A stretch of 64,000 nt of DNA, taken from an uncultured bacterium. GTDB taxonomy: Bacteria > Arandabacterota > Arandabacteria > Arandabacterales > Arandabacteraceae. The translations under genes and the position numbers were made by a program. The notes under the pieces were generated by a model. It was not told the origin of the DNA and ran no database searches. It saw only the letters and a program-made list of their open reading frames with translations. Location of the stretch: the NCBI GenBank assembly GCA_964598025.1, contig CAZRAU010000002.1:17854-81853 (forward strand). Direction: 5' to 3'. The stretch's first letter is position 1. Each line of letters opens with the position of its first letter. Of this stretch, positions 5,554-64,000 are shown piece after piece.

Positions 5554-5563
5554 GGTGACCTCC
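5554..5563 (-). repeat. GGAGGTCACC motif copy (inverted orientation, 154 nt upstream of minus-strand HK ORF)
   Basis: Plus strand reads GGTGACCTCC. Confidence 0.6.
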
Positions 5564-7090: not shown

Positions 7091-7112
7091 CCGAACAGGG
7101 GGTAACCATAGG

Positions 7113-23408: not shown

Positions 23409-23418
23409 GGAGGTCACC
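23409..23418 (+). repeat. GGAGGTCACC motif copy in gene-free convergent intergenic island
   Basis: gtttGGAGGTCACCtaagg. Confidence 0.7.
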
Positions 23419-31375: not shown

Positions 31376-32554
31376 TCATGCCACCCTCGAGTGACGCACC
31401 GGATTCGGTCCGGATCTTCTCAAGAAGGGTTTCATCAGGCTCATACCGAAGAGCAATAGATCGGCATGGTAGTCGAAACTTACCTTCCGCCTGATCAAAC
31501 CCCTCAGGTGCATGTTCCGTCTGATCAGCCGGAAAAGCGAGTCCACATGTTCAGGATTCATGCTCTCCATGAGGCTGCGCACCTTGCACCCGGTCATGAT
31601 TTCCTTTCCGATCATCGCTCGCCAGGCTTTCTCATAAGTACATAGACAACCGGCACTCAGGTCTCCCTTCCTGAAAGCCTGCAGCAGAACGTCGACGGCG
31701 ACATCGGAGCACATCAGGCCATAGAATATGCCCCCACCGGTCGTCGTCTTGATCTGCCCCGCCGCTTCTCCGACCGCGATAACGCGGTCGGCCACGGTCC
31801 GGTCCATCAACCCATGTGCTATGGGCTTGTGCGCGATCACGGGATCGACTTGGTTTCCCCCAGCCGCCACGCGGGCCCGCACGAATCTTGTGAGTTCCCT
31901 GATGTCCTGGTTCCTTGTCAGGGCGCCAACGCGGGCTTGGCCCCCGCCGGCTGGGACCACCCAGGCGAAGGAACCGCGCGTCAGGTCGTTAAGGTATATC
32001 TCAGGCCTCTCGAGGTCCGGCATCTCCACAACGGTTTGGAGCGCGAAGAGGAACGCCGGCGGTCTGCCGAAACCAAGGGCCCTGTGGAGGTCATAGTCGA
32101 CTCCGGTGGCAAGGACCACTACGCGGGCGCGGATCTCCTCCGTCTCCTCCGGCGCCCCGGCCCTGATGCTGCAGAGATCGGGCCCGACGGTTATACCGGT
32201 CACCTTCTGCCCGATGTGCGGGACCACGCCCTTGGCTATCGCCTCTTGGAGAATGCCCCTGTCGAAGAGGCCACGGTCGATGACGTATGAGAAAGGTTCG
32301 GTTGATGTGTAGTCCAGCGTTTCGCCTGACGGAGAGAAGAAAGTAACGGAGTCCATCTTATACAGCACCGAATCCGCCGGCAGATCGTGTTGCTTGAAAG
32401 CCTCCGCCCCCACGATTCCGGTGCAGACGACGTCGCGTCCGATCTCGGTGTCCTTTTCAAAAAGCGCCACATCAAATCCGAGGTCGGCCAGCCGGTACGC
32501 CGTGTATGAACCTACCGGCCCTCCACCGACGACGGCGATGTCATGCGTTCTCAT
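31376..32554 (-). CDS. FAD-dependent oxidoreductase, geranylgeranyl reductase family
   Basis: N-terminal dinucleotide-binding HDIAVVGGGPVGSYTAYRLADLGFDVALFEK. Length and internal motifs typical of the GGR/ChlP family. Last gene of the minus-strand glycan operon. Confidence 0.75.
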   Translation of the reverse strand: MRTHDIAVVGGGPVGSYTAYRLADLGFDVALFEKDTEIGRDVVCTGIVGAEAFKQHDLPADSVLYKMDSVTFFSPSGETLDYTSTEPFSYVIDRGLFDRGILQEAIAKGVVPHIGQKVTGITVGPDLCSIRAGAPEETEEIRARVVVLATGVDYDLHRALGFGRPPAFLFALQTVVEMPDLERPEIYLNDLTRGSFAWVVPAGGGQARVGALTRNQDIRELTRFVRARVAAGGNQVDPVIAHKPIAHGLMDRTVADRVIAVGEAAGQIKTTTGGGIFYGLMCSDVAVDVLLQAFRKGDLSAGCLCTYEKAWRAMIGKEIMTGCKVRSLMESMNPEHVDSLFRLIRRNMHLRGLIRRKVSFDYHADLLLFGMSLMKPFLRRSGPNPVRHSRVA

Positions 32555-32597
32555 GGTACCTCCAAGTGACTCTGAGTTGCACCACGGGTGCTGAGCG

Positions 32598-33296
32598 TCA
32601 GACCTTGCTGCCTCTCTCCTCCCACCTGCCGCGGAAGGTAATCAGAAACGAAAGCAAGATCAGTTTGAGATCCAGCCGGAAAGTCTGGTTGCCGACATAG
32701 AGGAGATCATGCCTGAATTTCTCGGCGCGCGGGACATCACGCGGGGCATACACCTGTGCCAGCCCGGTGAGGCCCGGCCTGACGGCCAGGCGTTCTTCAA
32801 AACCGGGAATCTGCTCATCGGGCAGGTGCCCGGAGGTCTCCTGTACCTGTACCTCGTTGAGGGGAAGTGCTCTCGGCCCGACGAAACTCATGTCGCCCTT
32901 CAGGATATTGAGAAGTTGAGGCATTTCATCGAGTGCGGTGGCCCGTAAGAACTTCCCGATCCGTGTAATCCTCGGGTCGTCCTCTGTGGCCTGAGTCGAC
33001 CCCCAGTCGGCGTCGGCGTTGGGGACCATGGAGCGGAACTTGTGAGCCTCGAACCGCGACTTGTACCGGCCCCACCTTTCCTGGATATAGAGCACAGGGC
33101 CGCCGTCCTCCAGCTTTATTGCGGCGGCAATCACGAGCCAGAGCGGGGCCGACAGTGCAAGGCCGATGGCGGCCAGGACGGCGTCAAACGGTCGTTTGAG
33201 CAAGGGTTCCCTTGGCCGGTTTGTCGCGCTGCTCGGGGCCGAAACCGCACTTGACAGGGGGGCACCGCTTTGGAAACCGACGCCTGCGGTTTTCAT
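32598..33296 (-). CDS. polyprenyl-phosphate sugar-1-phosphate transferase (small PglC/WbaP-C-terminal type, Bac_transf family)
   Basis: N-terminal membrane anchor LAAIGLALSAPLWLVIAAAIKL. Catalytic region YIQERWGRYKSRFEAHKFRSM...DPRITRIGKFLRATALDEMPQLLNILKGDMSFVGPRA. Confidence 0.85.
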   Translation of the reverse strand: MKTAGVGFQSGAPLSSAVSAPSSATNRPREPLLKRPFDAVLAAIGLALSAPLWLVIAAAIKLEDGGPVLYIQERWGRYKSRFEAHKFRSMVPNADADWGSTQATEDDPRITRIGKFLRATALDEMPQLLNILKGDMSFVGPRALPLNEVQVQETSGHLPDEQIPGFEERLAVRPGLTGLAQVYAPRDVPRAEKFRHDLLYVGNQTFRLDLKLILLSFLITFRGRWEERGSKV

Positions 33297-34291
33297 ACGA
33301 CCAACCCGAGGTTCATTCGCTCGGCGCTGTACCGGATAACGTCGGTGAGAATCTGGTTAAGGTCGTGACTCGGCCGGTAGCCGATGTACTGCCTTATCTT
33401 GGTCGTGTCCGGGATCCGGCACCTAATATCCTCGAAGCCTTTCCCGTAAGCTTCCTCATACGGCACGAGAGCCACCTGGGAATCACTGCCGGTGAGTTGC
33501 TTCACCCTGGATGCCAGGTCTCCGATCGTGATAGGCTCGTCGTTGCCTATGTTGAAGATCTCTCCGATCGCCCGGTCCGATACCATCAGTTCAATGGTTG
33601 CATCCACTGCATCACCCACCCAGGTGAAACTTCTCGTCTGGTACCCGTCTCCGTAGACCTGGATGGGTCTGCCGGCCAGAGCCGCCTCCACGAACCTCGG
33701 GATCACCATGCCGTAGGCGCCGGTCTGTCTGGGGCCGACCGTGTTGAAGAAACGGCAGATGATCACCGGCAACCCGTTTTGCCGGTAGTAGGCCATTGCA
33801 AGGTGCTCGTCGAGGGCCTTAGCGGCGGCATAGCACCAGCGTTGCGAGACGCCGAGCGTTATGTCGTCCGTTTCCTTGAAGCCTCGATCCGGCAATGGGG
33901 TATCCTTGCCGTAAACCTCCGAGGTCGAAGCGATGAGGACTTTCCGCCCATACCTCAGCGCGGATTCCAGAACGATCTCGGTCCCCCCGACATTCGTTGT
34001 CAGCGTATAGATGGGGCGCTCGAAGATCAGCCTCACGCCGACCGCCGCCGCGAGATGAAACACCGCATGGCATTTCTCCATCAAACGATTGACCGCCTTC
34101 ACATCAAGAACGGAGCCGAGAACGAAGTGCATATTCGGATTGTCCATGAGATGCTGTATGTTCTCGAGGTTTCCGGTCGAAAGATCGTCGAGCACGTATA
34201 CCTCTGCGCCGAGATCCAGCAGGGCCTCAGTAAGCCACGAGCCGATGAAGCCGGCACCGCCGGTCACTAGGTATCTGTCTGCAGTTTCCAT
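33293..34291 (-). CDS. NAD-dependent sugar-nucleotide epimerase/dehydratase (UDP-glucuronate decarboxylase / 4-epimerase-like)
   Basis: [14 protein letters not shown] Rossmann motif, YAAAK catalytic YxxxK. Confidence 0.8.
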   Translation of the reverse strand: METADRYLVTGGAGFIGSWLTEALLDLGAEVYVLDDLSTGNLENIQHLMDNPNMHFVLGSVLDVKAVNRLMEKCHAVFHLAAAVGVRLIFERPIYTLTTNVGGTEIVLESALRYGRKVLIASTSEVYGKDTPLPDRGFKETDDITLGVSQRWCYAAAKALDEHLAMAYYRQNGLPVIICRFFNTVGPRQTGAYGMVIPRFVEAALAGRPIQVYGDGYQTRSFTWVGDAVDATIELMVSDRAIGEIFNIGNDEPITIGDLASRVKQLTGSDSQVALVPYEEAYGKGFEDIRCRIPDTTKIRQYIGYRPSHDLNQILTDVIRYSAERMNLGLVV

Positions 34292-35547
34292 TGGTCTTCC
34301 CCCTTCTGTTCGCCTGGCGACCGGTCGACGTCGCGCATACCCTCGAAGAGACGTGCGTATCGCCGGACTGCTGTTTGTCTGGAATGTCTAAGATCTGCCG
34401 CCGACCGTGCATTCGTGCCGTATTGTGCCCGGAGGTCCGGTCTCGCCATGAGTCGGCGAATCGCCTGAACCATCTTGTGCGGATCCCCCGGCTCGATCAC
34501 GACACCGCACTTTGCCCGCTTGACTGTCCGGGCCACTTCACACTCGTTCTCGACTGCGGCCAGGACCGGCCTGGCGCTGGCGAGGATGCCGTATAGCTTG
34601 CTCGGCACGATGTAGCCGGCAAGACCGGATTTCAGCGAAACCACCGAGAGATCCGCCGAGGCGAGGGAGTACCTGAGTGCGTCACGGTCCTGATATGGGA
34701 CAAACCTGACATTGCTCAGTGAGAGGTCGGTCGCCCTCTCCTCGAGGGCGGCCTTGCCCACGCCGTCTCCGATGATCACGAATTCCACACCCGCATCCGA
34801 CTTCATGAGGTCGGCCGCTTCAAGGAGGGTATCGAGATCCTGGGAGAGGCCGACGTTTCCCGAATGCATGATCACGAAACGCCCGCATAGATCGTTCCTG
34901 AGCGAGAATCCATTGACCCTGTCCTCGGGTGAGATAGAAGCGGTGTCGGCCCAGTTCTCGATCACGGTGACGCGCCGGGGATCGGCGCCCTTGTCGATCA
35001 GACGCTTTCGCATGGTTCCCCCGATGGCGACGATGCCGGCGGCCTTGCCGAGCAGGAACCTATTCAGCGTGTCCAGCAGCAGAACCAGCGGACGCGCATT
35101 CATGACGCCGAGGACCTGGCCGACCTCGGGGAACACATCCTGACTGATGAAAACGAAACGGGCCCGCCTGATCCGGCTGACCAGGTAACCGACCAATCCG
35201 ATTACCGGCGGGTCCGTCATGGTGGCGACCACGTCGGCGGGGCCTGCGAGGATCAACGCGCCGATAAGCGAGGAGCATAGGAAGGAAAGGTAGTTGGTGA
35301 TCCTTCCGATGGGCGACCTGCGGGGCCAACCCGTGGTAAAGGTCCGGATCACTCTGGCGTTCCCGATTCGCTCCGAGGCGAAAAGGCGGAGCCGGGGAAG
35401 CCTGTTCCGATGGCTAACGTAGCTTGGGAAGCCGGTCACGACGGTAACCTCGTGGCTCGCGCTAAGATCGGCGGCCAGCTCGGTGAGCAGCTGGCCGGTC
35501 GAGGCGGGGTCCGGGTGGAAATACTGGTTTATGAACAGAATGCGCAT
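34267..35547 (-). CDS. GT4-family glycosyltransferase; ATG 35547 preferred (track extension to 35688 is low-complexity)
   Basis: [25 protein letters not shown]-terminus. C-terminal GT4 region with paired E residues. aagga SD. Confidence 0.8.
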
Positions 35548-36482
35548 TGGCGGTTCCTTGTGTACCAGTCGACCGTTTCGACCAGGCCGACGCTGAGGGG
35601 GGTCCTGGCTTCGAACCCGAACTCCCTGAGAGCCCTGGATGTATCGAGCCTGCGCCGTGGCTGGCCGTCGGGACGGGAGGTGTTCCATCTCACGAGGCCG
35701 TCGAAACCGGTCAGAGCGGCGATCAGGTCGACGAGTCCCTTGATCCGGACCTCCCTTCCGGATCCGAGGTTGACCGGCTGGGGTGAATCATAGTGTTCCG
35801 CCGCGAGTACTATGCCCTCAGCCGCATCTTTGACATAGAGAAACTCGCGCGATGCGTTGCCGCTGCCCCAGGCCTCGATCTCGGGGTCACCGTTTTCCTT
35901 GGCCTCGACCATCTTTCTGATGATGGCCGGGATGACGTGCGAAGACTCGAGATCGAAGTTGTCCCGGGGGCCGTACAAGTTGACCGGGAGCAGGTAGATG
36001 GCATTGAAGCCGTATTGCTCGCGGTATGCCTGCGCCTGGACCAGGAGCATCTTCTTGGCCAGGCCGTAGGGCGCATTGGTTTCCTCCGGATAGCCGTCCC
36101 AGAGATGTTCTTCCTTGAAGGGTACCGGAGTGTGCTTGGGATAAGCGCAGATGGTGCCGATGGCGACGAATTTCTCGATTCCCCAGACCCGCCCCAGCTC
36201 CATCATCTGGGTACCCATGATCAGGTTATCGTAGAAGAATCCGCCCGGATTGGCCTGGTTGGCGCCGATCCCGCCCACCTTTGCGGCCAGATGTATTACG
36301 ATATCCGGGCTATGGTCTCGATATGCCGCCTGAGCATCCTCCATGTCGATGAGATCGTAATCCCGGCTGCGGGGTACGAAGATATCCCGGCAGCCCCGGG
36401 CTTCCAGCACCTCGACTACGTGTGAGCCAAGGAAGCCGGCTCCGCCCGTGACAAGGACTCGTTTGCTCGTCCAGAAAGCCAT
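35529..36482 (-). CDS. fcl: GDP-L-fucose synthase (GDP-4-keto-6-deoxymannose 3,5-epimerase/4-reductase)
   Basis: [16 protein letters not shown]...[13 protein letters not shown]...NLYGPRDNF...IPAIIRK signature of Fcl/WcaG. Strong AGGAGG SD before ATG 36482. Confidence 0.88.
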
Positions 36483-37528
36483 TGTTCCTCCTTCCACCAT
36501 CTGTTCGGAAACTTGCGTTCCAGTATGCTGTCGCCTTCGCCGGGTGCCTCGAGTCCGATGCGCCGCATCTCGGCGTCGACCATTACTCTGGCGAGATCGT
36601 CAAACCGGAGCCTCGGCGCGGATCCCAACAGCCGAGAAGCTCTTGCAGGGTCGGCAGTCAGCTCTCCAACGTCGGTGGGCCGCAGGTAGCGTTCGTCGAT
36701 ACGGATGTGGTTCTCCAAGTCAAGGCCGGCATAGTCGAAGGCGACCTCGGCGAATTCCCTGACCGAATGGGCTTCGCCGGTCCCGAGCACGAAATCTCCG
36801 GGGCTATCCAGCTGGAGCATCTTGTGCATGGCCTCAACATACTCCGGGGCGTAACCCCAATCACGCCGGGCGCCCAGATTTCCCAAGTAGAGATAACGCT
36901 GGCGGCCTGCGGCAATGGCGGCGGCCGCCCGCGCGATCTTTCTGGTTACGAATGTTTCCCCTCTGCGCGGACTTTCATGGTTGAAGAGGATTCCGTTACA
37001 GATGAAAAGGTTGTAACCCTCGCGGTAATTGGCGGCCATCCAGTAAGAATAGAGCTTGCTGCAAGCGTAAGGACTTCGGGGCATGAAAGGCGTGCTCTCG
37101 TTCTGAGGCGGCGGCGCGGCCCCGAACATCTCGCTGCTGGAGGCTTGATAGAAGCGTATGTGATTGCCGCTTCTTCTTATGGCCTCGAGTATTCTCGTTG
37201 TGCCGAGGCCGGTGATATTACCGCTGTACTCGGGAATGTCGAAGCTGACCCGGACGTGGCTCTGGGCTCCCAGATGATATACCTCATCGGGTTTTATGTT
37301 GTATATCATGTTCGACACCTGTTCGGAGTCGGACAGGTCGCCGTAATGCAGAAAGAGCCGGGTATCGTCGGCGTGGGGATCCGCATAGATATGGTTGATT
37401 CTGCCCGTATTAAAGGTGCTCGCCCTGCGGATTATGCCGTGCACTTCATACCCCTTCGCAATCAGGAGCTCCGCAAGATACGATCCGTCTTGTCCCGTGA
37501 TTCCGGTAATCAATGCCTTTTTCGCCAT
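36416..37528 (-). CDS. gmd: GDP-mannose 4,6-dehydratase
   Basis: [48 protein letters not shown]..., near-invariant Gmd N-terminus. C-terminal tail is ~45 aa longer than usual and overlaps the fcl start by 67 nt. Confidence 0.9.
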
Positions 37529-37529
37529 A

Positions 37530-39287
37530 TCAATCACCCCTGTGGAGGGCCTGGGAACCCATAACAAGCACATCCATCCTGGTCCGCAGGAAACAGTCGA
37601 TCGCCTCAGCCGGTGTGCAAACGATGGGCTCATTCTCGTTGAAGGATGTATTGAGCACAACGGGCACGCCGGTGATCTTCTGAAATTCCCTGATCAGCTG
37701 CCAGTATGGGCGGTTGGCGTCCTTGCTCACGCTTTGCGGGCGGGCCGTCCCGTCGACGTGCGTTACCGCCGGGATATCGGCGCGCTTGGCGTCTGCGACA
37801 TCGAGGGACATCAGCATGAAGGGGGTGGGACATGCACCCTCGAAATACTCGTGTTGAGCCTCTTCGAGAACGGATGGGGCGAACGGTCTGAAGGGCTCGC
37901 GACGCTTTATTCGGTTATTGAGGACCTCCTTCATCTCCGGCTTGCGGGGGTCGACGACGATACTCCTGTTGCCGAGCGCGCGGGGCCCGAACTCGGACCG
38001 GCCCTGGAACCATCCGACGACTTTGCCCCGGGCCACCTGGCCGGCCGTCCACCTGCAAGTGCCGTCGAGGTCGTCGAACTTCCTGGCCCGACACCCGTTC
38101 CGTCGAATCTCGGGCTCCTTCCCGGCTAGCGCCGCGGCTATGTCGCCGTCATCGAACCCCGGCCCCCAGTAGACGTGGTCCATCGTGAAGGTGCGTGGTT
38201 TGTCCAGAATTTGGTTCCATACCCAGTACGCGGCCCCGAGCGAGGTTCCGCCGTCATGGCTGGCCGGCTGGATGTAGACTTCCTCGAAAGGGGTTTGCGA
38301 CAGGATCTTGCCGTTGACCACGCAGTTGAGGGCCACACCGCCGGCCAGACACAGCTTGTCGACGCCGTAGGCCTCGTGAAGCTTGCCAAGCAGGTTGAAC
38401 ATGGCGATCTCCAGCATCGCCTGGAGGGAGGCGGCGATGTCCTGGTGTCTCCGCTCGATCTCGGCCCCGGGCTCGCGCGGCGGCCCCAGCATCTCGGTCA
38501 TCTTCCCGGAATACGCGTTTGCCATTACCGGCGGTCCGTCATCCCACGTCATCGCAACACCGTCGCGGTGGTGGACGAAGTAGGGCAGATTGAGATTGTA
38601 GCCGAGCCCGTTGCCGTTCACCTTGACCAGCTCCCGGAATTCCGCCAGGTAAGCGGGTTCGCCGTAAGATGCAAGGCCCATGACCTTGTACTCGTCGCCG
38701 TACTTGGGAAATCCGAGAAACTGGGTCACCGCGGTGTATGCAAGGCCGAGCGAGTGCGGGAACTCGACCCAACCGCCCACGTCGATCTTGTTATCATGAC
38801 CGAGCCCCCACATGCAACTGACGAAGTCACCGAACCCATCAACCGAGAGCACGGCTGCCTCATCGAAGTCGGAAACGAAGTAGGCGCTTCCAAGGTGGGC
38901 CCGGTGGTGCTCCACGTTGTGGAGCCGGGCCTTGATGTTGCGGGCGTCGGTGCCCAATGCTTCGGCTACCTGTTCTCTGGTGTCGCCGATGCGCATCGCA
39001 TTGGACAGCCTATCGCCGAGCATGCCGATGCTCGGCATTCTCGAGAACGTATAGAGTATCTTTCTGTGAATGTGGGCGCTGGGGTTCCGGGATATGGCGA
39101 TATGATCGATATCCTCGGCCCTGAGGCCGGCGGCGGCCACGCAGTATCGGACTGCGTCGTAGGGAAACCCGGCGATATGCTTGATCCGCTTGAACCTTTC
39201 CTCCTCGACTGCCGCGACAAGCCGGCCGTCCGAGACGAGCGCGGCCGAGGCGTCTCCGTGATAGGCATTGATGCCCAGTATGTTCAT
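37530..39287 (-). CDS. carbamoyltransferase (NodU/CmcH family)
   Basis: [38 protein letters not shown]-terminal signature; length ~585 aa; ATGA overlap with downstream GT. Confidence 0.85.
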
Positions 39288-45755: not shown

Positions 45756-45792
45756 CGGCGTGCTCTCTTCCTTGTCGGGTGAAGTCTGTGGA

Positions 45793-46959: not shown

Positions 46960-46974
46960 GTTTCGAGCCTCGCT

Positions 46975-51193: not shown

Positions 51194-51302
51194 TGTTCGC
51201 TCCGCATCCTCCAGGGGACGTCGCCGGCGTTCCGGGGTGCTTCCCCGGGTGTGTTCCCTTGCAGCCACTCAGGCTTACGGTCCGCACTATTCCAACCCTC
51301 CC

Positions 51303-52499: not shown

Positions 52500-52516
52500 C
52501 GGGTTCTTGGCACGAC

Positions 52517-57530: not shown

Positions 57531-58357
57531 GGTTTCCGGTTCCGGTCCGACTTGGGGAACCCTACTGCGCAGATCGAGTAGTCGAACTCCCCGAGCAGCC
57601 TCAGACACGCCGCATACGTGATTCTGAGAAGTTTCTTCTTGATCGAACCGCAGCCCCAATTCATGTGCACATGACACATCCAGCAGCGGCCCCGGTACCC
57701 GGAACGGGCGAGCAAGCGCTCAAGGGCCTGACGTGTCCAGCGGGTCAGATGATGGGGTGGGTAGTCGAGGCGGCGGTTGAACTCCGGAACCTTCAAAGAT
57801 CTCTGTGGGGTTGGGACGCTCAGGCACAGAGTGGCTTCGGAAAACCGCCGCCTGATGCTCTTGACAAGGCCCGTGGGGTCGGGGAAGCGTACAAGGCTCT
57901 CCAGCATGACGACCGCCCTGGGCTCGGGCCAGTTTCCGGGATAAGCCTCCACCGATCCGGTGGCCACCGCAAATCCGTGGCTTCGAAGCGCCTCGACGTG
58001 TGCGGGCAGGGGATCCATTCCCATGGGACTCAGGCCGGTGGATTTCAAACCCATGAGAAAGCGCCCTGATTCAAAGCAGATCTCGAGCACCGGCGCGCGG
58101 GGGGGCAGATTGCGCCTGAGCCAGCGCAGGATGGCACGTTCGTTCGCGGTGAGCGACAGCCCCGCCCCGTTGCCCTCTCCGTGTGCCGGCATCGCCGGCG
58201 CTGCCTCGGAGAAATCCTGAAAGACCGGTTGGGTGGTGTCGAGCCTGCTGATGTGTTGGAGTCCGCATTCCGGACAGAGATGAAAAACCTCCGACCCGAG
58301 ATCCTCCACTATAGGCCTGTTGGATGTGGACCCGCAGGCAGGGCAGGAGCTCAGCAT
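57527..58357 (-). CDS. SAM-dependent methyltransferase with N-terminal zinc ribbon; ATG 58357 preferred
   Basis: CPACGS...CPECGL zinc ribbon. VLEICFESGRF. Class I methyltransferase-like core. Confidence 0.7.
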   Translation of the reverse strand: MLSSCPACGSTSNRPIVEDLGSEVFHLCPECGLQHISRLDTTQPVFQDFSEAAPAMPAHGEGNGAGLSLTANERAILRWLRRNLPPRAPVLEICFESGRFLMGLKSTGLSPMGMDPLPAHVEALRSHGFAVATGSVEAYPGNWPEPRAVVMLESLVRFPDPTGLVKSIRRRFSEATLCLSVPTPQRSLKVPEFNRRLDYPPHHLTRWTRQALERLLARSGYRGRCWMCHVHMNWGCGSIKKKLLRITYAACLRLLGEFDYSICAVGFPKSDRNRKP

Positions 58358-59718
58358 CGGGGTGCCTTGATCTGGGCGAACCGGCGGCCGTGCAGCCGCC
58401 GGTTCGCAGCCGGACGTCGGTGGGGTTGGGTATTCAAGTGCCGGACATGCCACGGCAGTCGAGGGCATACGAGTCCGAGCCTGTTATCTGATGTTGTGCC
58501 GTCGAGGTCGCCCGCGATTTCGACGTCGAAGGACACGACGCTATCCATGAAAAGTATCGATTCCACCTTCGGGATGTCGATCCCGAGCGAAATCGAGTAC
58601 CGGCCTCTGTTTAGAAAACCTCCGGGGATCGTGCATCTGCTCACATAGGCTCCGGGCGCGCAGTCTGCCTCGGCCCGGCACGCGCCGTCGCGGTCGGTGG
58701 AGCTGAGCACGATCGTGCCGTCGGAGGCCAGGAGTCGGTACCCGACGCGTAAGCCGGGTACGGGCCCGGCCAGCTCATACTCGATTTCGACAAAGCAATC
58801 ATGTCGCGTATCGATGGCGCCGCGCCCGGAACCCTCGCAGTCCTTGACGCGGACAGCGCGGAGGATGAAGCTGCCGTTTCCCGGGGCCTCGGCTGGGTCG
58901 GTCACGGCGTATTCGGCGCTCATGCCGCCTTTGGACGAGAGATACCTGGTGATCACCTCTCCGGTCTCGCCGGACATCTCGAGGCGGCCGTCGTCGAGCC
59001 ATATAGACCGAGTGCAGAGCTTGGCCACCGCACCCATGTTGTGGCTGACAAATACCACGGTTCGGCCTTCCCTGGCGACGTCGCCCATCTTCCCCAGGCA
59101 CTTCCTCTGGAACACGGCGTCACCGACTGCAAGCACCTCGTCCACAAGCAGGATCTCCGGCTCCAGGTGGGCGGCCACGGCGAATCCGAGCCTCACCCAC
59201 ATGCCGCTGGAGTATCGCTTAACCGGTGTGTCCACGAATCTCTCAATGCCGGCGAAGCCGACGATCCGGTCGAATTTGCTCCGCACGTCGTTGCGGCTCA
59301 TTCCAAGGATGGTGCCGCTGAGATATATGTTCTCCCGCCCGGTCAGCTCCGGATGAAAGCCCGTGCCGACTTCGAGGAGGCTGCCGACACGGCCCCTTAT
59401 GGTAGCCCTGCCTTCGGTCGGCTCCGTGATTCTGGAGAGCACCTTCAGCAACGTGCTCTTGCCGGCACCATTGCTCCCTATGAGTCCCAGGGTCTCGCCC
59501 TCTTCTACGCCGAATGAGACCTCCCGGAGCGCCCAGACGTCCACGGACGGGGGGACCCCGTCCACCCGCGCCGGTTTCCTCAGGAGCCGGAGGGGCGCCC
59601 TCATGGCCGTCGCGACCCTCTCGCGCAACGCCCCGTATTGGTACATTCCGCTTCCGACATACTGGCCGAGCCGGTAACGCTTGCCGATGTTTGCGGCTTC
59701 TATTGCCAATGGTTTCAT
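58351..59718 (-). CDS. wzt: ABC transporter ATP-binding protein of the Wzt/TagH type with C-terminal glycan-binding extension
   Basis: Walker A GSNGAGKST. ABC signature YSSGMWVRLGFAVA. Walker B ILLVDEVLAVGD. About 170 extra C-terminal residues as in O-antigen-binding Wzt proteins. Confidence 0.88.
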   Translation of the reverse strand: MKPLAIEAANIGKRYRLGQYVGSGMYQYGALRERVATAMRAPLRLLRKPARVDGVPPSVDVWALREVSFGVEEGETLGLIGSNGAGKSTLLKVLSRITEPTEGRATIRGRVGSLLEVGTGFHPELTGRENIYLSGTILGMSRNDVRSKFDRIVGFAGIERFVDTPVKRYSSGMWVRLGFAVAAHLEPEILLVDEVLAVGDAVFQRKCLGKMGDVAREGRTVVFVSHNMGAVAKLCTRSIWLDDGRLEMSGETGEVITRYLSSKGGMSAEYAVTDPAEAPGNGSFILRAVRVKDCEGSGRGAIDTRHDCFVEIEYELAGPVPGLRVGYRLLASDGTIVLSSTDRDGACRAEADCAPGAYVSRCTIPGGFLNRGRYSISLGIDIPKVESILFMDSVVSFDVEIAGDLDGTTSDNRLGLVCPRLPWHVRHLNTQPHRRPAANRRLHGRRFAQIKAPRC

Positions 59719-59816
59719 GATCCGTATTCCCGGTTACTGATTGTGGTGCTCAAGACCAGAGTCTCCTCACCGGTTGAGTCTCCGGATCGCCGGTGTCCGA
59801 ATAGATGGAGGAACCG

Positions 59817-60659
59817 TCAGTCTGAATACCCCAGTCGCTCCAGGAGATCACCGGTGATCTCCCTGAAGTAGGCGGTCACCGCCCGGTCGAAGTGGTTATG
59901 CCAATCACCTGCCGTGCCCATCCTGTAGTGGGACGCCGGGTCGGATTGACCGACGCTCCGCCCCCCCGAGTTGACCTCGAAGGTGTGTGCGCGGTACAAT
60001 ACGTCGAACTCGTCTGCGGGCATCCTCACATCCAGAAACTCGAGAATGCCGTGCAGGAATGCCGACTGATCTGCTGCCAGGTCCTCATATCGGAAGAGTT
60101 TCACGCGGGCTCCGGCCGCGTTCATCCATGACAACTGGGCATGGAAGAGCCCCCGGTCCCACAAGGTGTCAATGCCGTACCTGAGCCCCGCATGGAGATC
60201 AAGGCATGCAAGGTCTTTTCGGAACTTCGGGATCAGACCGGTCGGTCGATGAGAATACCTGGCCGAGAAATACCATGAAGTCACTATGTCACGAGGGTCC
60301 CTCAACACGAAGAATGCCTTGTAGGCGTTCGGTTTAGGGAGATTCACAAAGGTCGAGTAGTCTATGTACAGGTTCGTGCCTATGGTCTTCCCGGGGAGGG
60401 GTTCGTCTATCCGGGCATCCTGGACGCGCTCCGGATCCTGAGTGAAAGGCAATGGCCGAAGCCCCGAGTAACAATAGAACAGCGGATCTGAGAATACATC
60501 CTTCAGCATCCGGCTGGCCGTCCGCTGGGTACAACAGTGGTACGCGTTGTCATAGGAAACGTGGTGCACGACCCTGGGGGATCCGTATGTCTCCCTGATG
60601 CGACGTGGTACCAGGTCCGTGACACGCTTTTTCAGGCGCTCGAGGGTCAAAGGTCCCAC
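59817..60659 (-). CDS. sulfotransferase family protein
   Basis: PAPS-binding 3'-PB-like region KAFFVLRDPRDIVTSWYFS plus further sulfotransferase-family spacing. Sits between wzt and wzm. Confidence 0.7.
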   Translation of the reverse strand: MGPLTLERLKKRVTDLVPRRIRETYGSPRVVHHVSYDNAYHCCTQRTASRMLKDVFSDPLFYCYSGLRPLPFTQDPERVQDARIDEPLPGKTIGTNLYIDYSTFVNLPKPNAYKAFFVLRDPRDIVTSWYFSARYSHRPTGLIPKFRKDLACLDLHAGLRYGIDTLWDRGLFHAQLSWMNAAGARVKLFRYEDLAADQSAFLHGILEFLDVRMPADEFDVLYRAHTFEVNSGGRSVGQSDPASHYRMGTAGDWHNHFDRAVTAYFREITGDLLERLGYSD

Positions 60660-60839
60660 AGCGCCCCCCCGAAAACCGGGACTCCAGGCTGCCCAAGAAC
60701 ACCCATCTGCTTCATTATGCTCGACTCCCGGCCCTGCGGCGTACGCTGAAGTACGCCTCGCTCCCTGAGCCTTCGCAAGCCTCGCATCTGGCTGTTCTTG
60801 ACCAGCCTGATACAGCCCGCTTTTTCAACAGCCCCACTC

Positions 60840-61685
60840 CTACACTATGTCGGCGAACCATCGCTCCATCCTCCTGAAGTAAACCAGTCCACACGCGAAC
60901 AAGACGGCGGCGGCCAGAGTAGACACGCCCAGCTCGGTCCATCTGAAGGGAGTGCCCAGGATGGCGGAGCGGTAGCCGCCGACGATGCCGGCCATCGGGT
61001 TTACATGCGCCACCCACTTCCACGGACCGTTGAGAATTCCGACCGGATATATTACCGGAGTCAGAAACATCCAGATCTGTATAAGGAAGGGAAGCACGTA
61101 GCGGAAATCCCTGTATGCCACATTCAGCGCACTGATGAGCATTCCGACGCCGAGCGCGGCAATGACCACGGCCATCACCAGGGGCACCACCATCAGTACG
61201 TTCAGGGTCGGCACGATGCCGTAGAAGATCATCAAGACGATGAGGATCCCGAACGATACCGCGAAATCGACGAGGCAAGCCCCGACTGCGGCTATGGGGA
61301 TGATGATTCTTGAAAAGTAGACCTTTCTTATCAGGTTGGCACTCCCCACCACGCTTTCGCCGCTTCTGGTGACGGCGCCGGCGAAGAACTCCCATGGCAG
61401 GAGCCCCGCATAGACAAACACCGGGTACGGGAAACCCTCCGAGCCGATCTTCGCCAGGCGTCCGAAGACCAGGCTGAAAACCAGCATCTTGGTCGCAGGC
61501 TGAAGCACGGCCCACAAGAAGCCGATGGCGGTCTGTTTGTATCGCACCTTGACATCGCGCCACGTCAGGAAATAGAGCAGCTCGCGGTACTGCCAGATCT
61601 CGCGCAGCCGCAGCGAGAGCCAACCGCGCGACGGCTCGACCACAGTGACCGGAGTTGCCTCGCAGGCCTGGCCCACGTGATTCAT
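60840..61685 (-). CDS. wzm: ABC-2 type polysaccharide export permease
   Basis: LREIWQYRELLYFLTWRDVKVRYKQTAIGFLWAVLQP ABC-2 signature, six hydrophobic segments. ATG 61685 overlaps the asnB-like stop (ATGA). Confidence 0.88.
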   Translation of the reverse strand: MNHVGQACEATPVTVVEPSRGWLSLRLREIWQYRELLYFLTWRDVKVRYKQTAIGFLWAVLQPATKMLVFSLVFGRLAKIGSEGFPYPVFVYAGLLPWEFFAGAVTRSGESVVGSANLIRKVYFSRIIIPIAAVGACLVDFAVSFGILIVLMIFYGIVPTLNVLMVVPLVMAVVIAALGVGMLISALNVAYRDFRYVLPFLIQIWMFLTPVIYPVGILNGPWKWVAHVNPMAGIVGGYRSAILGTPFRWTELGVSTLAAAVLFACGLVYFRRMERWFADIV

Positions 61686-63559
61686 AGAGCGTCCTTCAGC
61701 CAGTGGTTCAGGACGACCAGACTCCAGACCCGTGACCAATGCACTCCGCCTTCTCCAAAACCGCGCAGGAGCGATCGAACATAAGGCTTGTTAAGATGCG
61801 GACTCTCGAGGATGGGCTCAGTGAACTCTCTCAGGCTCTTCCTGAGCCATGTATCGAACGGGAACACGAAGCCCTGCTTTCGCCGGTGGACTACCTCGCG
61901 CGGCAACCCGTTTTCCAGGGCCTTCGCCAGGAGGGGTTTCGGCCCCGCGCCGCCGACCTTATGACGGTCGGGGATGCGCGCAAGCAGTTCCACCAGGACA
62001 TGGTCGACGAAGGGCGACCGAACCTCCAGGGAGTGCGCCATACTGAAGGCGTCCGTGTCCCTCAGGAGCTGATTCGCCATATAGCGGGTGGTCTCCAGGA
62101 ACCCGACCTGGCCCTGTATGGTCTTGTGGGGCAGGCCTTCCGGAGCCGCGGTTCCAATATGTCCTGTCGCCTCGCGAGCAAAGGCCGGGTCCAGCAAACC
62201 TCTGATCTGGTCTACCGTGAATATCTGCCTGTAGGACCTGTAGATGTCCGGGACGGATCCGCCCCCGGAAAGGATGGAAGCCAGCTTGGCGGTTCGCGAC
62301 CGCCCGCGGGTATTGAGAAGTCTGCCGGCCAGGAGTCTGCCCATAGGTAGACACGAAACGGCGCGGTGCAATCTGTGGAGGTAGGGTATCCACCTGAACG
62401 ATGGATATCCCCAGAAGATCTCGTCGCCACCAAGGCCCGACAGCGCCACCTTCAGCCCCGCACGGGCTGCCGCGAGCGCAACGAAGTAGGTGTTGACACC
62501 GTCAACGGTCGGCTGGTCCGCGACATCGAGTATTCGCTCCATGTGATCCCGGAGATCGGCGCCGCTCACGGTGACCTCAACATGGTCTGTGGCGTAGGTG
62601 TCGGCGACTCGCCTGGCGAAGCCGCTCTCGTCATAGGCTGTGCCCGGGAAGCCGACGGATACGGTTCTTATAGGGTGGTGGTCCAACTGCCTCATGACAG
62701 CCACGATGGAACTCGAGTCGATGCCGCCGCTCAGGAAGACACCAATCGGGACATCGCTTATCAGGTGACATTTCACGGTGTCCAATAGACATGAATGAAC
62801 GCGGTCGATAGCCTCGGATTCAGTCATGTCCCAGAGAGAGTTCTCGCGACATGCCTTGCTCAGATCGTAGTAGCGGTGCTCCGCCGGACCACTCTGGTCC
62901 ACAACCAGGTAGTGGCCGGGTTTGAGGGCGGAGATCCCGCGGTAAACGGTGCCGGGAGGCGGCACATGGCCGAAGTGCAGGTAAGAGCCGACCGCCGGGG
63001 GGTCGATTTCCGGTTCGACCATCCCGGACGCAAGGATGGCCCGGATCTCCGATGCGAAGACGAAACCGGCGCTGGAATGAGCATAGTAGAGCGGTTTCTG
63101 GCCGAACCGGTCGCGGGCCAGCAAGAGACGCCGGCGCGGCGGTGCGGTGCCCCGGCAGTCATAGACAGCGAAACTGAACATGCCTCGAAGGCGGGTCAGC
63201 AAACCCTCGATGCCCCACTGCTCGTAACCATGGATAAGCACCTCGGTGTCCGTGTTGCTCTTGAAGACATGGCCGCATGCTTGAAGCTCGGGGCGGAGGT
63301 CGGGAAAGTTGTATATCTCACCGTTGTAGGTTGTCCAGATCCGCCCGGTCTCGTTGGGCATGGGCTGGTGGCCGGCGGCCGATGGATCTATGATTGACAG
63401 CCTCGTATGTCCCAGGCCGACGGGTCCGTGGCCGGATGTGAACACACCGGAATCATCGGGGCCGCGCCGGTCCATGACGGCCGTCATCCGCCCGAGCGCT
63501 GCCGTAATGGCCCCCGCGGCGACTTCGCCGTTCCGGTATATTCCGGCTACTCCACACAT
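61682..63559 (-). CDS. asparagine synthase (glutamine-hydrolysing) family amidotransferase
   Basis: N-terminal MCGVAGIY (Cys2 nucleophile). SGGIDSS PP-loop. ~625 aa. Confidence 0.88.
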   Translation of the reverse strand: MCGVAGIYRNGEVAAGAITAALGRMTAVMDRRGPDDSGVFTSGHGPVGLGHTRLSIIDPSAAGHQPMPNETGRIWTTYNGEIYNFPDLRPELQACGHVFKSNTDTEVLIHGYEQWGIEGLLTRLRGMFSFAVYDCRGTAPPRRRLLLARDRFGQKPLYYAHSSAGFVFASEIRAILASGMVEPEIDPPAVGSYLHFGHVPPPGTVYRGISALKPGHYLVVDQSGPAEHRYYDLSKACRENSLWDMTESEAIDRVHSCLLDTVKCHLISDVPIGVFLSGGIDSSSIVAVMRQLDHHPIRTVSVGFPGTAYDESGFARRVADTYATDHVEVTVSGADLRDHMERILDVADQPTVDGVNTYFVALAAARAGLKVALSGLGGDEIFWGYPSFRWIPYLHRLHRAVSCLPMGRLLAGRLLNTRGRSRTAKLASILSGGGSVPDIYRSYRQIFTVDQIRGLLDPAFAREATGHIGTAAPEGLPHKTIQGQVGFLETTRYMANQLLRDTDAFSMAHSLEVRSPFVDHVLVELLARIPDRHKVGGAGPKPLLAKALENGLPREVVHRRKQGFVFPFDTWLRKSLREFTEPILESPHLNKPYVRSLLRGFGEGGVHWSRVWSLVVLNHWLKDAL

Positions 63560-63664
63560 GTTCGCGTCTGTGGCATTTCCGTGGTGGTATTGTCCGGCAT
63601 GGCCGGCGGGACCGGGATGGCCGCGGGTTTCCGGCCCTGCCGGTGGCGGGTGAGGTCCCGGTTC

Positions 63665-64000
63665 CTAAAACCTGTCAACTTCCTCATCCGAGAGGTGCAC
63701 GGCTACGGAGCGGCCAAGCAGTTCCACCGATATCACCAGTTTCCGCTTGTTCGGCCGGGTCGCCAGTATATGGCCGATCGCGCCTTTGAGTGGGCCGGAG
63801 ACCACGATGACCTCATCGCCCTCCTCGAAATACGGATGCGGCTCGAGCACCCGGTCCGACGACAGCAGGATTATCAGGCTCTGCATCTCGCTTGGTGCGA
63901 CCTGCTCGGGGCCGTTCCCGTTGCCCAGAATTCTTGCGAGTCCGGGGGTTTCAAGCATCCGGGCGAAGCGCTGCGGGAACGGTTCGGTCTGGACGAAGAG
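63665..64000 (-). CDS. NusG-family transcription antiterminator paralog (RfaH/UpxY/LoaP-like); C-terminal KOW domain present, N-terminus beyond the window edge
   Basis: KOW signature FEEGDEVIVVSGPLKGAIGHILATRPNKRKLVISVELLGRSVAVHL. Reading frame stays open to nt 64000. Sits at the 5' end of the 32-kb minus-strand glycan operon. Confidence 0.7.
   Translation of the reverse strand, partial: LFVQTEPFPQRFARMLETPGLARILGNGNGPEQVAPSEMQSLIILLSSDRVLEPHPYFEEGDEVIVVSGPLKGAIGHILATRPNKRKLVISVELLGRSVAVHLSDEEVDRF

What the first reader, a model, noticed from the sequence alone, without database searches (positions are those of the whole stretch)
31376..64000. 32-kb single-strand glycan operon headed by a NusG-paralog antiterminator
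- Operon layout: about 25 consecutive minus-strand genes, many with ATGA or 4-19 nt overlaps and no intervening opposite-strand gene. They run from the asparagine-synthase-like gene down to the geranylgeranyl-reductase-like gene.
- Antiterminator: immediately upstream on the same strand is a gene whose product has a NusG KOW domain and continues beyond the window. This is the arrangement seen for RfaH/UpxY/LoaP-type specialised antiterminators, which make very long polysaccharide operons processive.
- Spacer: the 105-nt spacer 63560-63664 would be the place for a recruitment (ops-like) element.
Basis: partly seen in the sequence, partly recalled or inferred. Interest (0 to 1): 0.6.

Follow-up and report, generated by a model that had tools for sequence, protein, structure and literature searches.

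The report
Glycan operon with UpxY-like NusG paralog
A 32-kb run of 27 same-strand sugar-polymer genes sits directly behind a specialised copy of the transcription factor NusG, a layout already known from Bacteroides capsule operons, so this is a new example of a known design.

Summary
Window 31376-63559 carries 27 consecutive minus-strand glycan genes, most of them overlapping or abutting. No antisense ORF matches a protein family.

The cut ORF at 63665-64000 is the last 111 residues of a 200-aa NGN+KOW protein. That protein scores just under the UpxY-family cut-off and at half the cut-offs for housekeeping NusG and RfaH. In every close relative it lies between a Wzc-type tyrosine kinase gene and the asparagine-synthase-like gene, never next to secE/rplK. 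It is therefore a specialised NusG paralog.

Two corrections:
- **Position.** In relatives the paralog is the third co-directional gene, after a small SLBB export gene and Wzc.
- **Recruitment site.** The 105-nt spacer is not conserved; it is 18 nt and 3 nt in two syntenic relatives. The conserved non-coding element, CGGTTATGTAACCGAC, lies upstream of the paralog gene, beyond the window edge.

This element looks like a shortened form of a leader found upstream of many distant family members. That leader is a covarying hairpin plus a GCGRAGC mini-hairpin, resembling Bacteroides opsX.

Antitermination and single-transcript status are inferred, not shown. Verdict: a new member of a known kind, of moderate interest.

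The parts
63665..64000 (-). 3' part (111 codons plus stop) of a specialised NusG paralog (NusG-SP, UpxY-like). About 267 nt of the gene lie beyond the window.
   Evidence: Identical to residues 90-200 of P0009. P0009 scores UpxY 97.4 and nusG 67.6 bits. AF2 gives NGN plus a beta-barrel KOW, pLDDT 85.9.
63560..63664 (-). 105-nt spacer between the NusG paralog and AsnB. Not a conserved element.
   Evidence: Fold z -1.16. The spacer is 18 nt in L004 and 3 nt in L172, and is unalignable elsewhere. No leader-model hit.
61682..63559 (-). Glutamine-dependent amidotransferase of the asparagine synthase family (AsnB-like).
   Evidence: Asn_synthase 1e-78 and GATase_7. TIGR01536 427.8 bits against a cut-off of 267. 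It always follows the paralog in the clade, except in L001.
60840..61685 (-). ABC-2 permease (Wzm-like). Its start overlaps the AsnB stop (ATGA).
   Evidence: ABC2_membrane 6.8e-23. Start chosen. Length of 281 aa matches L004.
60660..60839 (-). 180-nt imperfect palindromic insertion between Wzm and the sulfotransferase. It belongs to a small repeat family.
   Evidence: RNA fold -88.3 kcal/mol, z -5.84. Absent in L004 and L166, where the gap is 19-25 nt. Two copies at about 79% identity in L172 6410-6490 and 6556-6636.
59817..60659 (-). Sulfotransferase.
   Evidence: Sulfotransfer_1 7.4e-15.
58351..59718 (-). ABC ATPase with a carbohydrate-binding C-terminal domain (Wzt-like).
   Evidence: ABC_tran 9.9e-22 and Wzt_C 7.3e-6. 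Teichoic-acid and galactan exporter models match at 1e-56 to 1e-58.
53791..58357 (-). Four modification genes: methyltransferase (57527-58357), CapK-like adenylate-forming enzyme (55980-57530), NAD-dependent epimerase/dehydratase (54967-55983), polysaccharide pyruvyl transferase (53791-54966).
   Evidence: Junctions are -7, -4, -4 and 0 nt. Same order in L004.
43384..53809 (-). Nine genes: GT9 (52517-53809), GT4 (51303-52520), epimerase/dehydratase (50159-51268), GT4 (49069-50193), GT2 (48024-49091), methyltransferase (46975-48039), and three GT4 (45793-46959, 44574-45755, 43384-44583).
   Evidence: Junctions.
41849..43387 (-). Polytopic membrane protein with a weak O-antigen ligase/polymerase (Wzy_C) match.
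   Evidence: Wzy_C 9.9e-6, 25.9 bits, below the cut-off of 31.7. No NCBIfam match.
33293..41859 (-). Seven genes: two GT4 (40639-41859, 39284-40642), carbamoyltransferase (37530-39287), GDP-mannose 4,6-dehydratase (36416-37528), GDP-fucose-synthase-like epimerase/reductase (35529-36482), GT4 (34267-35547), epimerase/dehydratase (33293-34291).
   Evidence: Junctions.
32598..33296 (-). Initiating polyprenyl-phosphate glycosyl-phosphotransferase (Bac_transf).
   Evidence: Bac_transf 3.6e-58. TIGR03025 231 bits.
31376..32554 (-). Geranylgeranyl-reductase-family flavoprotein, the last gene of the run, 43 nt after Bac_transf.
   Evidence: TIGR02032 171.5 bits against a cut-off of 158.8. The convergent histidine kinase ends at 31292.

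Best explanation
**What it is.** The window holds most of one long glycan biosynthesis and export locus. It combines an ABC-transporter route (Wzm/Wzt), ten GT4, one GT2 and one GT9 glycosyltransferases, and a GDP-fucose/deoxyhexose branch. It also carries sulfo-, methyl-, carbamoyl- and pyruvyl-transferases and an initiating phosphoglycosyl transferase.

**The regulator.** Immediately 5' on the same strand is a locus-resident specialised NusG paralog (NusG-SP). Its nearest family model is the UpxY family.

**Likely mechanism (inferred by analogy with UpxY, RfaH and LoaP; not shown).** RNA polymerase pauses at a short conserved element in the leader just upstream of the paralog gene. The paralog's NGN domain binds the paused complex there in place of housekeeping NusG. 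It then stays bound and suppresses pausing, Rho-dependent termination and hairpin-dependent termination across the roughly 33 kb that follow.

**Where the loading site is.**
- In close relatives the candidate site is CGGTTATGTAACCGAC(G/A)GGGG, 12-60 nt before the paralog's start codon.
- In the window's organism this position would be about 280-330 nt beyond coordinate 64000.
- The 105-nt spacer inside the window is not that site.

**Where the locus starts.** The full locus probably begins further upstream with a small SLBB export gene and a Wzc-type co-polymerase/tyrosine kinase.
For: **Shown.**
- 27 co-directional glycan genes with overlapping or abutting junctions.
- No antisense ORF with a family match.
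- σ70-like promoter and intrinsic-terminator counts equal shuffled expectation, and none falls in a gap.
- The fragment equals residues 90-200 of P0009.
- P0009 scores UpxY 97.4/100, LoaP 91.2/125, RfaH 67.8/144.5 and nusG 67.6/135.7.
- More distant family members pass the UpxY cut-off at 115-127 bits.
- AF2 gives NGN plus a beta-barrel KOW with pLDDT 85.9. The best structural matches are NusG, a NusG-RNA complex and RfaH.
- L004 is fully syntenic at 72-80% nucleotide identity. The order SLBB-Wzc-paralog-AsnB-Wzm recurs in all loci that reach far enough.
- The 11-mer ATGTAACCGAC occurs exactly once in 10 clade loci, always just upstream of the paralog. It is absent from 162 other loci.
- A strand-specific leader lies upstream of distant paralogs. 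GGCGAAGC occurs 54 times sense against 1 antisense, and GGCGGAGC 31 against 2. 75 loci carry the 20-mer core.
- The leader stem pair switches between G-C (23 sequences) and C-G (19 sequences).
- All 24 covariance-model hits are on the sense strand.

**From the literature.**
- UpxY recruitment sites lie in the leader upstream of upxY, with the start codon at +9 to +111.
- They combine a pause hairpin with a YGCGNAGCR non-template DNA hairpin (PMC11685472).
- NusG-SPs encoded inside long glycan operons are an established class (PMC7593976, PMC7819879).
Against: - No expression data exist. Co-transcription and antitermination are inferences.
- P0009 falls 2.6 bits short of the UpxY cut-off. There is no UpxZ-like partner, and the paralog is not the first co-directional gene.
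- The window's own leader could not be read, because contig look-ups and collection scans were exhausted. The element is inferred from relatives with 55-87% protein identity.
- The closest relatives lack the GCGNAGC mini-hairpin; they read GGGGGATTCGTG instead. The link to opsX therefore rests on the TGTAA-NN-GAC-N-GGGG part and on L172.
- The covariance model matches the clade element only weakly, at E 4.7 and 6.7.
- A GC-rich hairpin right after Wzc in relatives may be a terminator. That would make SLBB-Wzc a separate unit.
- Gaps of 180, 105 and 98 nt could hide promoters of a type the σ70 scan does not detect.
Confidence: 0.7

Rival explanations
1. The cluster is several independent transcription units with internal promoters in the 180-, 105- and 98-nt gaps. 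The NusG paralog would then be irrelevant to most of it, or would act only on the first few genes.
For: - Three gaps are long enough for promoters.
- The 98-100-nt sulfotransferase-to-Wzt gap keeps its length in L004 and L166.
- The σ70 scan may not describe promoters of this uncultivated lineage.
- σ28-like promoters occur elsewhere in the window.
Against: - About 20 of 27 junctions overlap or abut.
- The 98-nt gap has no conserved sequence block.
- The 180-nt gap is a lineage-specific palindromic insertion that is missing in relatives.
- No promoter-like or terminator-like site falls in any gap.
Confidence: 0.2
2. One reading: the paralog is loaded at an ops-like element in the 105-nt spacer 63560-63664, downstream of its own gene.
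For: - In two distant relatives a copy of the family leader lies immediately after the paralog gene: L039 10681-10746 and L025 10498-10563.
- In L003 the equivalent spacer contains GCGGTAGC, the ops core.
Against: - The spacer shrinks to 18 nt in L004 and 3 nt in L172, both of which keep the whole gene order.
- There is no conserved block, and the fold is ordinary at z -1.16.
- Neither the leader model nor motif searches find it in the window above chance.
Confidence: 0.06
3. The ORF is the housekeeping NusG, and its position next to the glycan genes is coincidental.
For: Only the KOW half is visible in the window. On the fragment alone the nusG model scores 42.1 bits, close to UpxY at 43.4.
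Against: - The full-length protein scores 67.6 bits against a nusG cut-off of 135.7.
- No secE or rplK neighbour appears in any of about 15 related loci.
- The family sits 5' of glycan genes in most loci.
Confidence: 0.02
4. The paralog acts mainly in trans on other loci, like RfaH. Its linkage to this cluster would then be incidental or only partial.
For: - The ops consensus GGCGGTAGNNTG matches exactly once inside the cluster, at 39717-39728 on the sense strand.
- In L001 the paralog is followed by a response regulator, not AsnB.
Against: - The ops match is at chance level: 8 hits against 4.4±2.0 with one mismatch allowed.
- The RfaH model score is 67.8 against 144.5.
- AF2 gives a beta-barrel CTD, not an alpha-hairpin CTD.
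- Linkage to glycan genes is conserved across the family.
Confidence: 0.08

Closest known systems
UpxY family (Bacteroides capsular polysaccharide operons; NCBIfam NF033644)
   Same: - NGN+KOW paralog encoded in cis at the 5' end of a long polysaccharide operon.
- Best-scoring family model, 97.4 bits. More distant members of the same hit list pass the cut-off.
- The conserved candidate loading site lies in the leader just upstream of the paralog's own start codon.
- The wider family's leader has a hairpin plus a GCG(A/G)AGC mini-hairpin, like opsX YGCGNAGCR (PMC11685472).
   Different: - 2.6 bits below the curated cut-off.
- No UpxZ-type inhibitor gene and no invertible promoter were seen.
- In this clade SLBB and Wzc precede it.
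- It has a 38-aa N-terminal extension and a clade-specific TRCHHE motif.
- The closest relatives lack the GCGNAGC hairpin.
- Not a Bacteroidota organism; the nearest named relatives are Candidatus Eisenbacteria MAGs.
RfaH (Enterobacteria; ops GGCGGTAGnnTG)
   Same: Specialised NusG paralog that makes long LPS, capsule and conjugation operons processive. It is loaded at a short non-template DNA hairpin in the leader. NGN alignment is 27% identical.
   Different: [quoted passage not shown]
- It has an alpha-helical autoinhibitory CTD, whereas the CTD here is predicted as a beta-barrel.
- The RfaH model scores 67.8 against 144.5.
- No ops enrichment in the window.
LoaP (Firmicutes and others; NF033641)
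   Same: Cis-encoded NusG-SP for very long operons. Second-best model at 91.2 bits. The best low-rmsd structural match is the 'NusG-RNA complex' 8f5g.
   Different: LoaP is below its cut-off of 125 here. LoaP loci are polyketide and antibiotic clusters, and its recruitment is proposed to use a nascent-RNA hairpin (PMC11685472, PMC12691694).
RfaH cluster CL7 of Shewanella, encoded inside exopolysaccharide operons (PMC7593976)
   Same: A NusG-SP embedded within, not at the very start of, an EPS operon, next to ABC-transporter and signalling genes.
   Different: A different protein lineage (RfaH-like). No sequence comparison was made here.

Membership tests
UpxY family antiterminator (NF033644) | Whole-protein HMM score at or above the curated cut-off of 100 bits | tested here: inconclusive
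   P0009 scores 97.4 bits. Clade members score 86.8-100.4, and P0003 passes at 100.4. More distant relatives score 114.7-126.5. It is the best-scoring family in every case.
UpxY family antiterminator (NF033644) | NGN domain plus a single KOW domain, about 170-200 aa | tested here: met
   PF02357 is precomputed for P0009. KOW match on the window fragment. AF2 model with NGN and a 5-strand KOW, pLDDT 85.9.
UpxY family antiterminator (NF033644) | First gene of its polysaccharide operon, followed by upxZ | tested here: not met
   In the clade SLBB and Wzc precede it, and AsnB follows. It is the first gene only in the sister subclade: L086, L173, L175.
UpxY family antiterminator (NF033644) | Locus-specific recruitment site (pause hairpin plus GCGNAGC non-template hairpin) in the leader upstream of its own gene | tested here: inconclusive
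   - A conserved element lies 12-60 nt upstream of the gene in relatives.
- GCGAAGC is kept in L172 only.
- The window's own leader is not available.
- Pausing and binding are not testable with these tools.
RfaH (TIGR01955) | HMM score at or above 144.5 bits | tested here: not met
   67.8 bits.
RfaH (TIGR01955) | ops element GGCGGTAGnnTG in the leader of target operons | tested here: not met
   One exact match, inside a GT4 coding region at 39717-39728. The count is at chance level and there is none in the gaps.
RfaH (TIGR01955) | Alpha-helical, autoinhibitory CTD in the free protein | tested here: inconclusive
   AF2 predicts a beta-barrel CTD. A prediction cannot exclude fold switching.
LoaP (NF033641) | HMM score at or above 125 bits | tested here: not met
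   91.2 bits.
Housekeeping NusG (TIGR00922) | HMM score at or above 135.7 bits and a secE-nusG-rplK neighbourhood | tested here: not met
   67.6 bits. Neighbours in relatives are Wzc and AsnB.
ABC-transporter-dependent glycan pathway (Wzm/Wzt) | ABC-2 permease plus an ATPase with a Wzt C-terminal glycan-binding domain, an initiating phosphoglycosyl transferase, and cytoplasmic glycosyltransferases | tested here: met
   ABC2_membrane, ABC_tran plus Wzt_C (26.5 bits, below the 30.4 cut-off), Bac_transf, 12 GTs. A Wzy_C-like protein, together with Wzc and SLBB in relatives, shows mixed features.
XrtA/PEP-CTERM EPS locus | EpsI-type amidotransferase TIGR03108 at or above 816.9 bits | tested here: not met
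   443.7 bits. The Wzc of L004 is below the TIGR03007 and TIGR03018 cut-offs.

The most novel reading that the evidence does not exclude
A structured leader of about 50 nt sits upstream of NusG-SP genes in Acidobacteriota, Desulfobacterota, Nitrospirota and other phyla. It reads GGGTTAG-[G/C]TCAC-N5-6-CCC-TGTAA-GTGA[C/G]-GGG-GCG[A/G]AGC-TGT, is strictly sense-strand, shows G-C/C-G covariation in its stem, and matches no Rfam family. It may be an undescribed, phylum-spanning opsX-type loading site.

The window's clade carries a version shortened by 15 nt, in which the closest relatives have replaced the GCGNAGC mini-hairpin. That would imply a changed recognition mode, co-evolving with the clade-specific TRCHHE motif in the NGN domain.
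Probability: 0.35. Interest if true: 0.55.

Novelty: new member of a known kind. Interest (0 to 1): 0.35.

Why it matters
Specialised NusG paralogs explain how bacteria express very long, termination-prone surface-glycan and antibiotic operons. Mechanistic work exists only for RfaH, LoaP and Bacteroides UpxY.

This locus, and the several hundred relatives found here, show the same cis-encoded design in uncultivated lineages: an Eisenbacteria-like clade, Acidobacteriota, Desulfobacterota and Nitrospirota. They also supply a conserved, testable candidate loading site.

In practice, heterologous expression of such 30-kb glycan clusters would probably need the paralog and its leader to be included. 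The window itself adds no new principle.

Tried and rejected
- **Recovering the window's own upstream sequence.** P0009 has no gene record and no accession. The first genome scan found nothing. The second genome scan and the metagenome scan returned only more distant relatives. Contig look-ups were then exhausted, so the window's own leader was never read.
- **Rfam.** No family matched the window, the clade loci or the distant leaders. The only hits were an unrelated group II intron fragment in L096 and a sub-threshold chrB-b match.
- **Spacer as a structured element.** The fold was ordinary.
- **The 98-nt gap as a conserved element.** Its length is conserved but its sequence is not.
- **σ54 or σ70 reading of the GGAGGTCGCGG block upstream of SLBB.** Spacing is inconsistent between loci, judged by inspection.
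- **ATGTAACCGAC as a σ70 -10 box.** No conserved -35 is present, judged by inspection.
- **A small conserved ORF upstream of SLBB.** The frame is not kept in L003, judged by inspection.
- **Covariance model of the distant leader against the clade.** Only weak hits at E 4.7-6.7, though at the expected place. Nothing in the window.
- **Consensus RNA fold of the Wzc-to-paralog gap.** Only a 4-bp stem with no covariation.
- **PEP-CTERM/XrtA membership.** Scores were below cut-off.
Full report
**1. Observation.**

ORF listing and translation followed by Pfam and NCBIfam scans show 27 complete minus-strand genes between 63559 and 31376. In 5'-to-3' order they are:
- an AsnB-like amidotransferase;
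- a Wzm permease;
- a sulfotransferase;
- a Wzt ATPase;
- a methyltransferase;
- a CapK-like adenylate-forming enzyme;
- an epimerase;
- a pyruvyl transferase;
- GT9, then GT4;
- an epimerase;
- GT4, then GT2;
- a methyltransferase;
- three GT4;
- a Wzy_C-like membrane protein;
- two GT4;
- a carbamoyltransferase;
- GDP-mannose dehydratase;
- a GDP-fucose-synthase-like enzyme;
- GT4;
- an epimerase;
- the initiating Bac_transf enzyme;
- a geranylgeranyl-reductase-family flavoprotein.

A start-codon survey shows that about 20 junctions overlap or leave at most 1 nt. Up to nine junctions, depending on the start codon chosen, can be read as 4-nt ATGA/GTGA overlaps. The larger gaps are 105, 180, 98, 43, 37, 34 and 15 nt. 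The nine longest plus-strand ORFs in the region, and one alternative minus-strand frame, match no Pfam family. A convergent hybrid histidine kinase (27822-31292, +) closes the cluster. The description is therefore correct. There are slightly more genes than stated, and one overlap (GMD to fcl) reaches 67 nt.

**2. The NusG-like gene.**

The ORF that runs off the window (63665-64000) gives 111 residues. They have a near-threshold KOW match and align to the C-terminal two-thirds of the LoaP, UpxY, NusG and RfaH models.

A database search found close homologs with an NGN domain. One of them, P0009 (200 aa), contains the fragment exactly as residues 90-200. Its longest contig is 86,827 nt, the same length as for P0121, which is identical to the window's AsnB. 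P0009 is thus the full-length product.
- It scores UpxY 97.4 (cut-off 100), LoaP 91.2 (125), RfaH 67.8 (144.5) and housekeeping nusG 67.6 (135.7).
- More distant members of the same hit list pass the UpxY cut-off at 115-127 bits.
- AlphaFold2 with a 99-sequence alignment gives NGN plus a beta-barrel KOW (pLDDT 85.9). The first 22 residues or so are disordered, and there is no RfaH-like helical CTD.
- The nearest solved structures are NusG, a NusG-RNA complex (8f5g) and RfaH.

This is a specialised NusG paralog, not the housekeeping factor.

**3. What lies upstream, from relatives.**

L004, from a JGI metagenome contig, is 72-80% identical in DNA to the window. It has the same gene order from the paralog through GT9.

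In L004, L003/L006 (a Candidatus Eisenbacteria MAG), L005, L166-L172 and L176 the order is: SLBB export protein (about 162 aa), Wzc-type co-polymerase/tyrosine kinase (about 730 aa), a gap of about 85-195 nt, the paralog, then AsnB and Wzm. L001 has Wzc, then the paralog, then a response regulator.

No locus has secE or rplK nearby. In this clade, however, the paralog is the third co-directional gene, not the head.

In the sister subclade the paralog is first. In L086 and L175 two tRNA genes on the other strand are followed by the paralog, SLBB and Wzc. In L173/174 the paralog is followed by sulfate-activation genes and, further on, Poly_export and Wzz.

Among 58 distant relatives (<50% identity) with at least 8 kb on both sides, same-strand glycan genes lie downstream in 32 and upstream in 9. 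That is 70 hits against 11.

**4. The spacer and the real conserved element.**

The 105-nt spacer has an ordinary predicted fold (z -1.16). The equivalent spacer is 18 nt in L004 and 3 nt in L172, where CCC is followed directly by ATGTGCGGC. The other loci share no conserved block. It is therefore not a conserved recruitment site.

The Wzc-to-paralog gap, by contrast, holds an invariant ATGTAACCGAC inside CGGTTATGTAACCGAC(G/A)GGGG. This occurs once per locus in 10 clade loci, with one mismatch in L004, at 12-60 nt before the paralog's start. It is absent from 162 other loci. Only a 4-bp stem is predicted there, with no covariation. The element would lie a few hundred bases beyond the window edge. 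It is not found inside the window above chance.

**5. A family-wide leader.**

A k-mer count on the 260 nt upstream of the NGN domain in 143 non-redundant distant loci gave strongly strand-specific words. GGCGAAGC occurs 54 times sense against 1 antisense, GGCGGAGC 31 against 2, and TGTAAGTGA 45 against 1. Seventy-five loci carry the core TGTAAGTGACGGGGCGAAGC with up to 5 substitutions, 50-300 nt before the NGN domain.

The aligned element reads GGGTTAG-[G/C]TCAC-N5-6-CCC-TGTAA-GTGA[C/G]-GGG-GCG[A/G]AGC-TGT.
- One pair of the GTCAC/GTGAC stem switches between G-C (23 sequences) and C-G (19 sequences).
- A covariance model built from it finds 24 hits at E ≤ 0.01 in 1.39 Mb of GTDB loci, all on the sense strand. 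Most lie 100-180 nt upstream of the paralog. Many of these sequences were used to build the model, so they match by construction.
- Hits outside the training set include copies just after the paralog gene in L039 and L025.
- No Rfam family matches.

The GCG(A/G)AGC heptamer is the same GCG..AGC mini-hairpin as in E. coli ops (GCGGTAGC) and Bacteroides opsX (YGCGNAGCR). In those systems a pause hairpin and the non-template DNA hairpin load UpxY just upstream of its own start codon (PMC11685472). From my own knowledge, d(GCGAAGC) is a classic very stable DNA mini-hairpin.

The clade element looks like this leader with the internal 15 nt removed: GGTTA|TGTAA-CC-GAC-G-GGGG.
- L172 keeps GGGGCGAAGC.
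- L003 has GGGCGTGC.
- The closest relatives read GGGGGATTCGTG instead.
- With filters off, the model's only two hits in 67.5 kb of clade loci fall exactly on this element, but weakly, at E 4.7 and 6.7.

Homology of the two elements is therefore likely but not proven.

**6. Is it one operon?**

σ70-like promoter and intrinsic-terminator counts equal shuffled expectation, and no site falls in a gap.

The 180-nt gap (60660-60839) is a long imperfect palindrome (-88.3 kcal/mol, z -5.84). It is missing from L004 and L166, and two homologous copies occur upstream of SLBB in L172. It is thus a small mobile or REP-like repeat inserted inside the operon. It has no U-tract. It is the kind of obstacle a processive antiterminator would override.

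The 98-nt gap keeps its length in relatives but not its sequence. Co-transcription is likely but unproven.

In relatives a GC-rich hairpin, whose sequence differs between loci, follows the Wzc stop codon. Lower-GC members have an AT-rich stretch just before the element. The paralog may therefore begin its own transcript after all. This remains open.

**7. Mechanism and rivals.**

Best explanation, confidence 0.7: a cis-encoded UpxY-like NusG-SP is loaded at a leader element upstream of its own gene. It then carries RNA polymerase through roughly 33 kb of glycan genes. Identity and context are shown; the activity is inferred by analogy.

The rivals are:
- several independent units (0.2);
- loading in the 105-nt spacer (0.06);
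- housekeeping NusG (0.02);
- RfaH-like action in trans (0.08).

**8. Comparison and novelty.**

NusG-SPs inside or beside long polysaccharide operons are established: UpxY, RfaH cluster CL7 in Shewanella, and TaA and LoaP for antibiotic clusters (PMC7593976, PMC7819879). This locus works like UpxY. It fails or only borders several membership criteria: it is 2.6 bits under the cut-off, has no UpxZ, and is not the first gene. I classify it as a new member of a known kind.

The most novel element is the unannotated family-wide leader and its shortened clade variant, both of which lie outside the window.

**9. Limits.**

The window's own leader was never read. No expression or biochemical data exist. 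Several promoter readings are based on inspection only.

Noticed in passing
window 60660-60839 (-); L172 6410-6490 and 6556-6636: A 180-nt imperfect palindrome (-88.3 kcal/mol, z -5.84) is inserted between Wzm and the sulfotransferase. It is absent from syntenic relatives, but two copies at about 79% identity occur in another relative's intergenic region. This looks like a small REP/MITE-like repeat family.
   Followed up: partly
window 5554-5563(-), 5721, 19210, 20685, 23409, 23475, 27715 (+): GGAGGTCACC occurs 7 times against 0.2 expected (0 of 100 shuffles reach 7). Six of the seven copies lie 0-6 nt before an ATG or GTG; the copy at 23409 has a GTG 8 nt downstream. Most copies are preceded by CTAAAG, 16-17 nt, then (G/T)YCGATA(A/T), which fits the σ28/FliA consensus TAAA-N15-GCCGATAA (my own knowledge). 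All lie in front of signalling genes. The same tripartite motif, with a weaker -10, lies about 350 nt upstream of SLBB in L004, L166, L169 and L171.
   Followed up: partly
window 1-31292: The other half of the window is a dense signalling island. It holds at least eight histidine kinases or hybrid kinases rich in PAS and GAF domains, several response regulators, a KaiC homolog (7056-8648), a CheB-CheR fusion with PAS domains (11468-14869) and a response-regulator-GGDEF protein (19572-20555).
   Followed up: partly
L163 3695-3761, L041 9830-9895 and about 75 other loci: A strand-specific leader of about 50 nt lies upstream of distant NusG-SP genes. It has a covarying 5-bp stem plus a GCG(A/G)AGC mini-hairpin and matches no Rfam family. 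Extra copies lie just after the paralog gene (L039 10681-10746, L025 10498-10563) or 1.5-2.4 kb away (L022, L024, L042).
   Followed up: partly
L004 7119-7129, L166 1772-1782, L169 2448-2458, L172 7043-7053, L003 6911-6921: AACCGT(C/T)-N0-2-GGAGGTC(G/A)CG is invariant about 85-100 nt upstream of the SLBB start codon in six clade loci. Its function is unknown. No consistent σ54 or σ70 spacing was seen.
   Followed up: partly
window 39717-39728 (-): An exact match to the E. coli ops consensus (GGCGGTAGCCTG) lies on the sense strand inside a GT4 coding region. About 0.2 such matches are expected by chance, so it is probably coincidental. L003 has GCGGTAGC in its paralog-to-AsnB spacer, and L169 has GGCGGTAGC far upstream of SLBB.
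   Followed up: partly
window 31376-32554 (-): A geranylgeranyl-reductase-family flavoprotein is the last gene of the glycan run, 43 nt after the initiating phosphoglycosyl transferase. It might saturate the polyprenyl carrier lipid. This is speculative.
   Followed up: no
window 36416-36482 (-): The GDP-mannose dehydratase and the following fcl-like gene appear to overlap by 67 nt, unusually long compared with the other junctions.
   Followed up: no
P0009 residues 1-38 and 44-49; alignments A2 and A3: The clade's paralogs have a poorly conserved N-terminal extension of about 38 aa. It is disordered in the AF2 model apart from one short strand. They also have an invariant TRCHHE motif where the wider family has TRSRHE. 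This region aligns with RfaH residues 9-14, next to the residues I recall as contacting ops.
   Followed up: partly
L173 2329-2489, L175 282-442, L086 490-650: In the sister subclade the paralog gene is preceded by adjoining tRNA-Leu(GAG) and tRNA-Arg(CCU) genes on the opposite strand, and by a good σ70-like promoter (TTGACT-N17-TATAAT in L173).
   Followed up: partly
L096 1-155 (-): A group II intron D1-D4 fragment (RF02003, 54.1 bits) lies at the end of an acidobacterial-type contig. It is unrelated to the finding.
   Followed up: no
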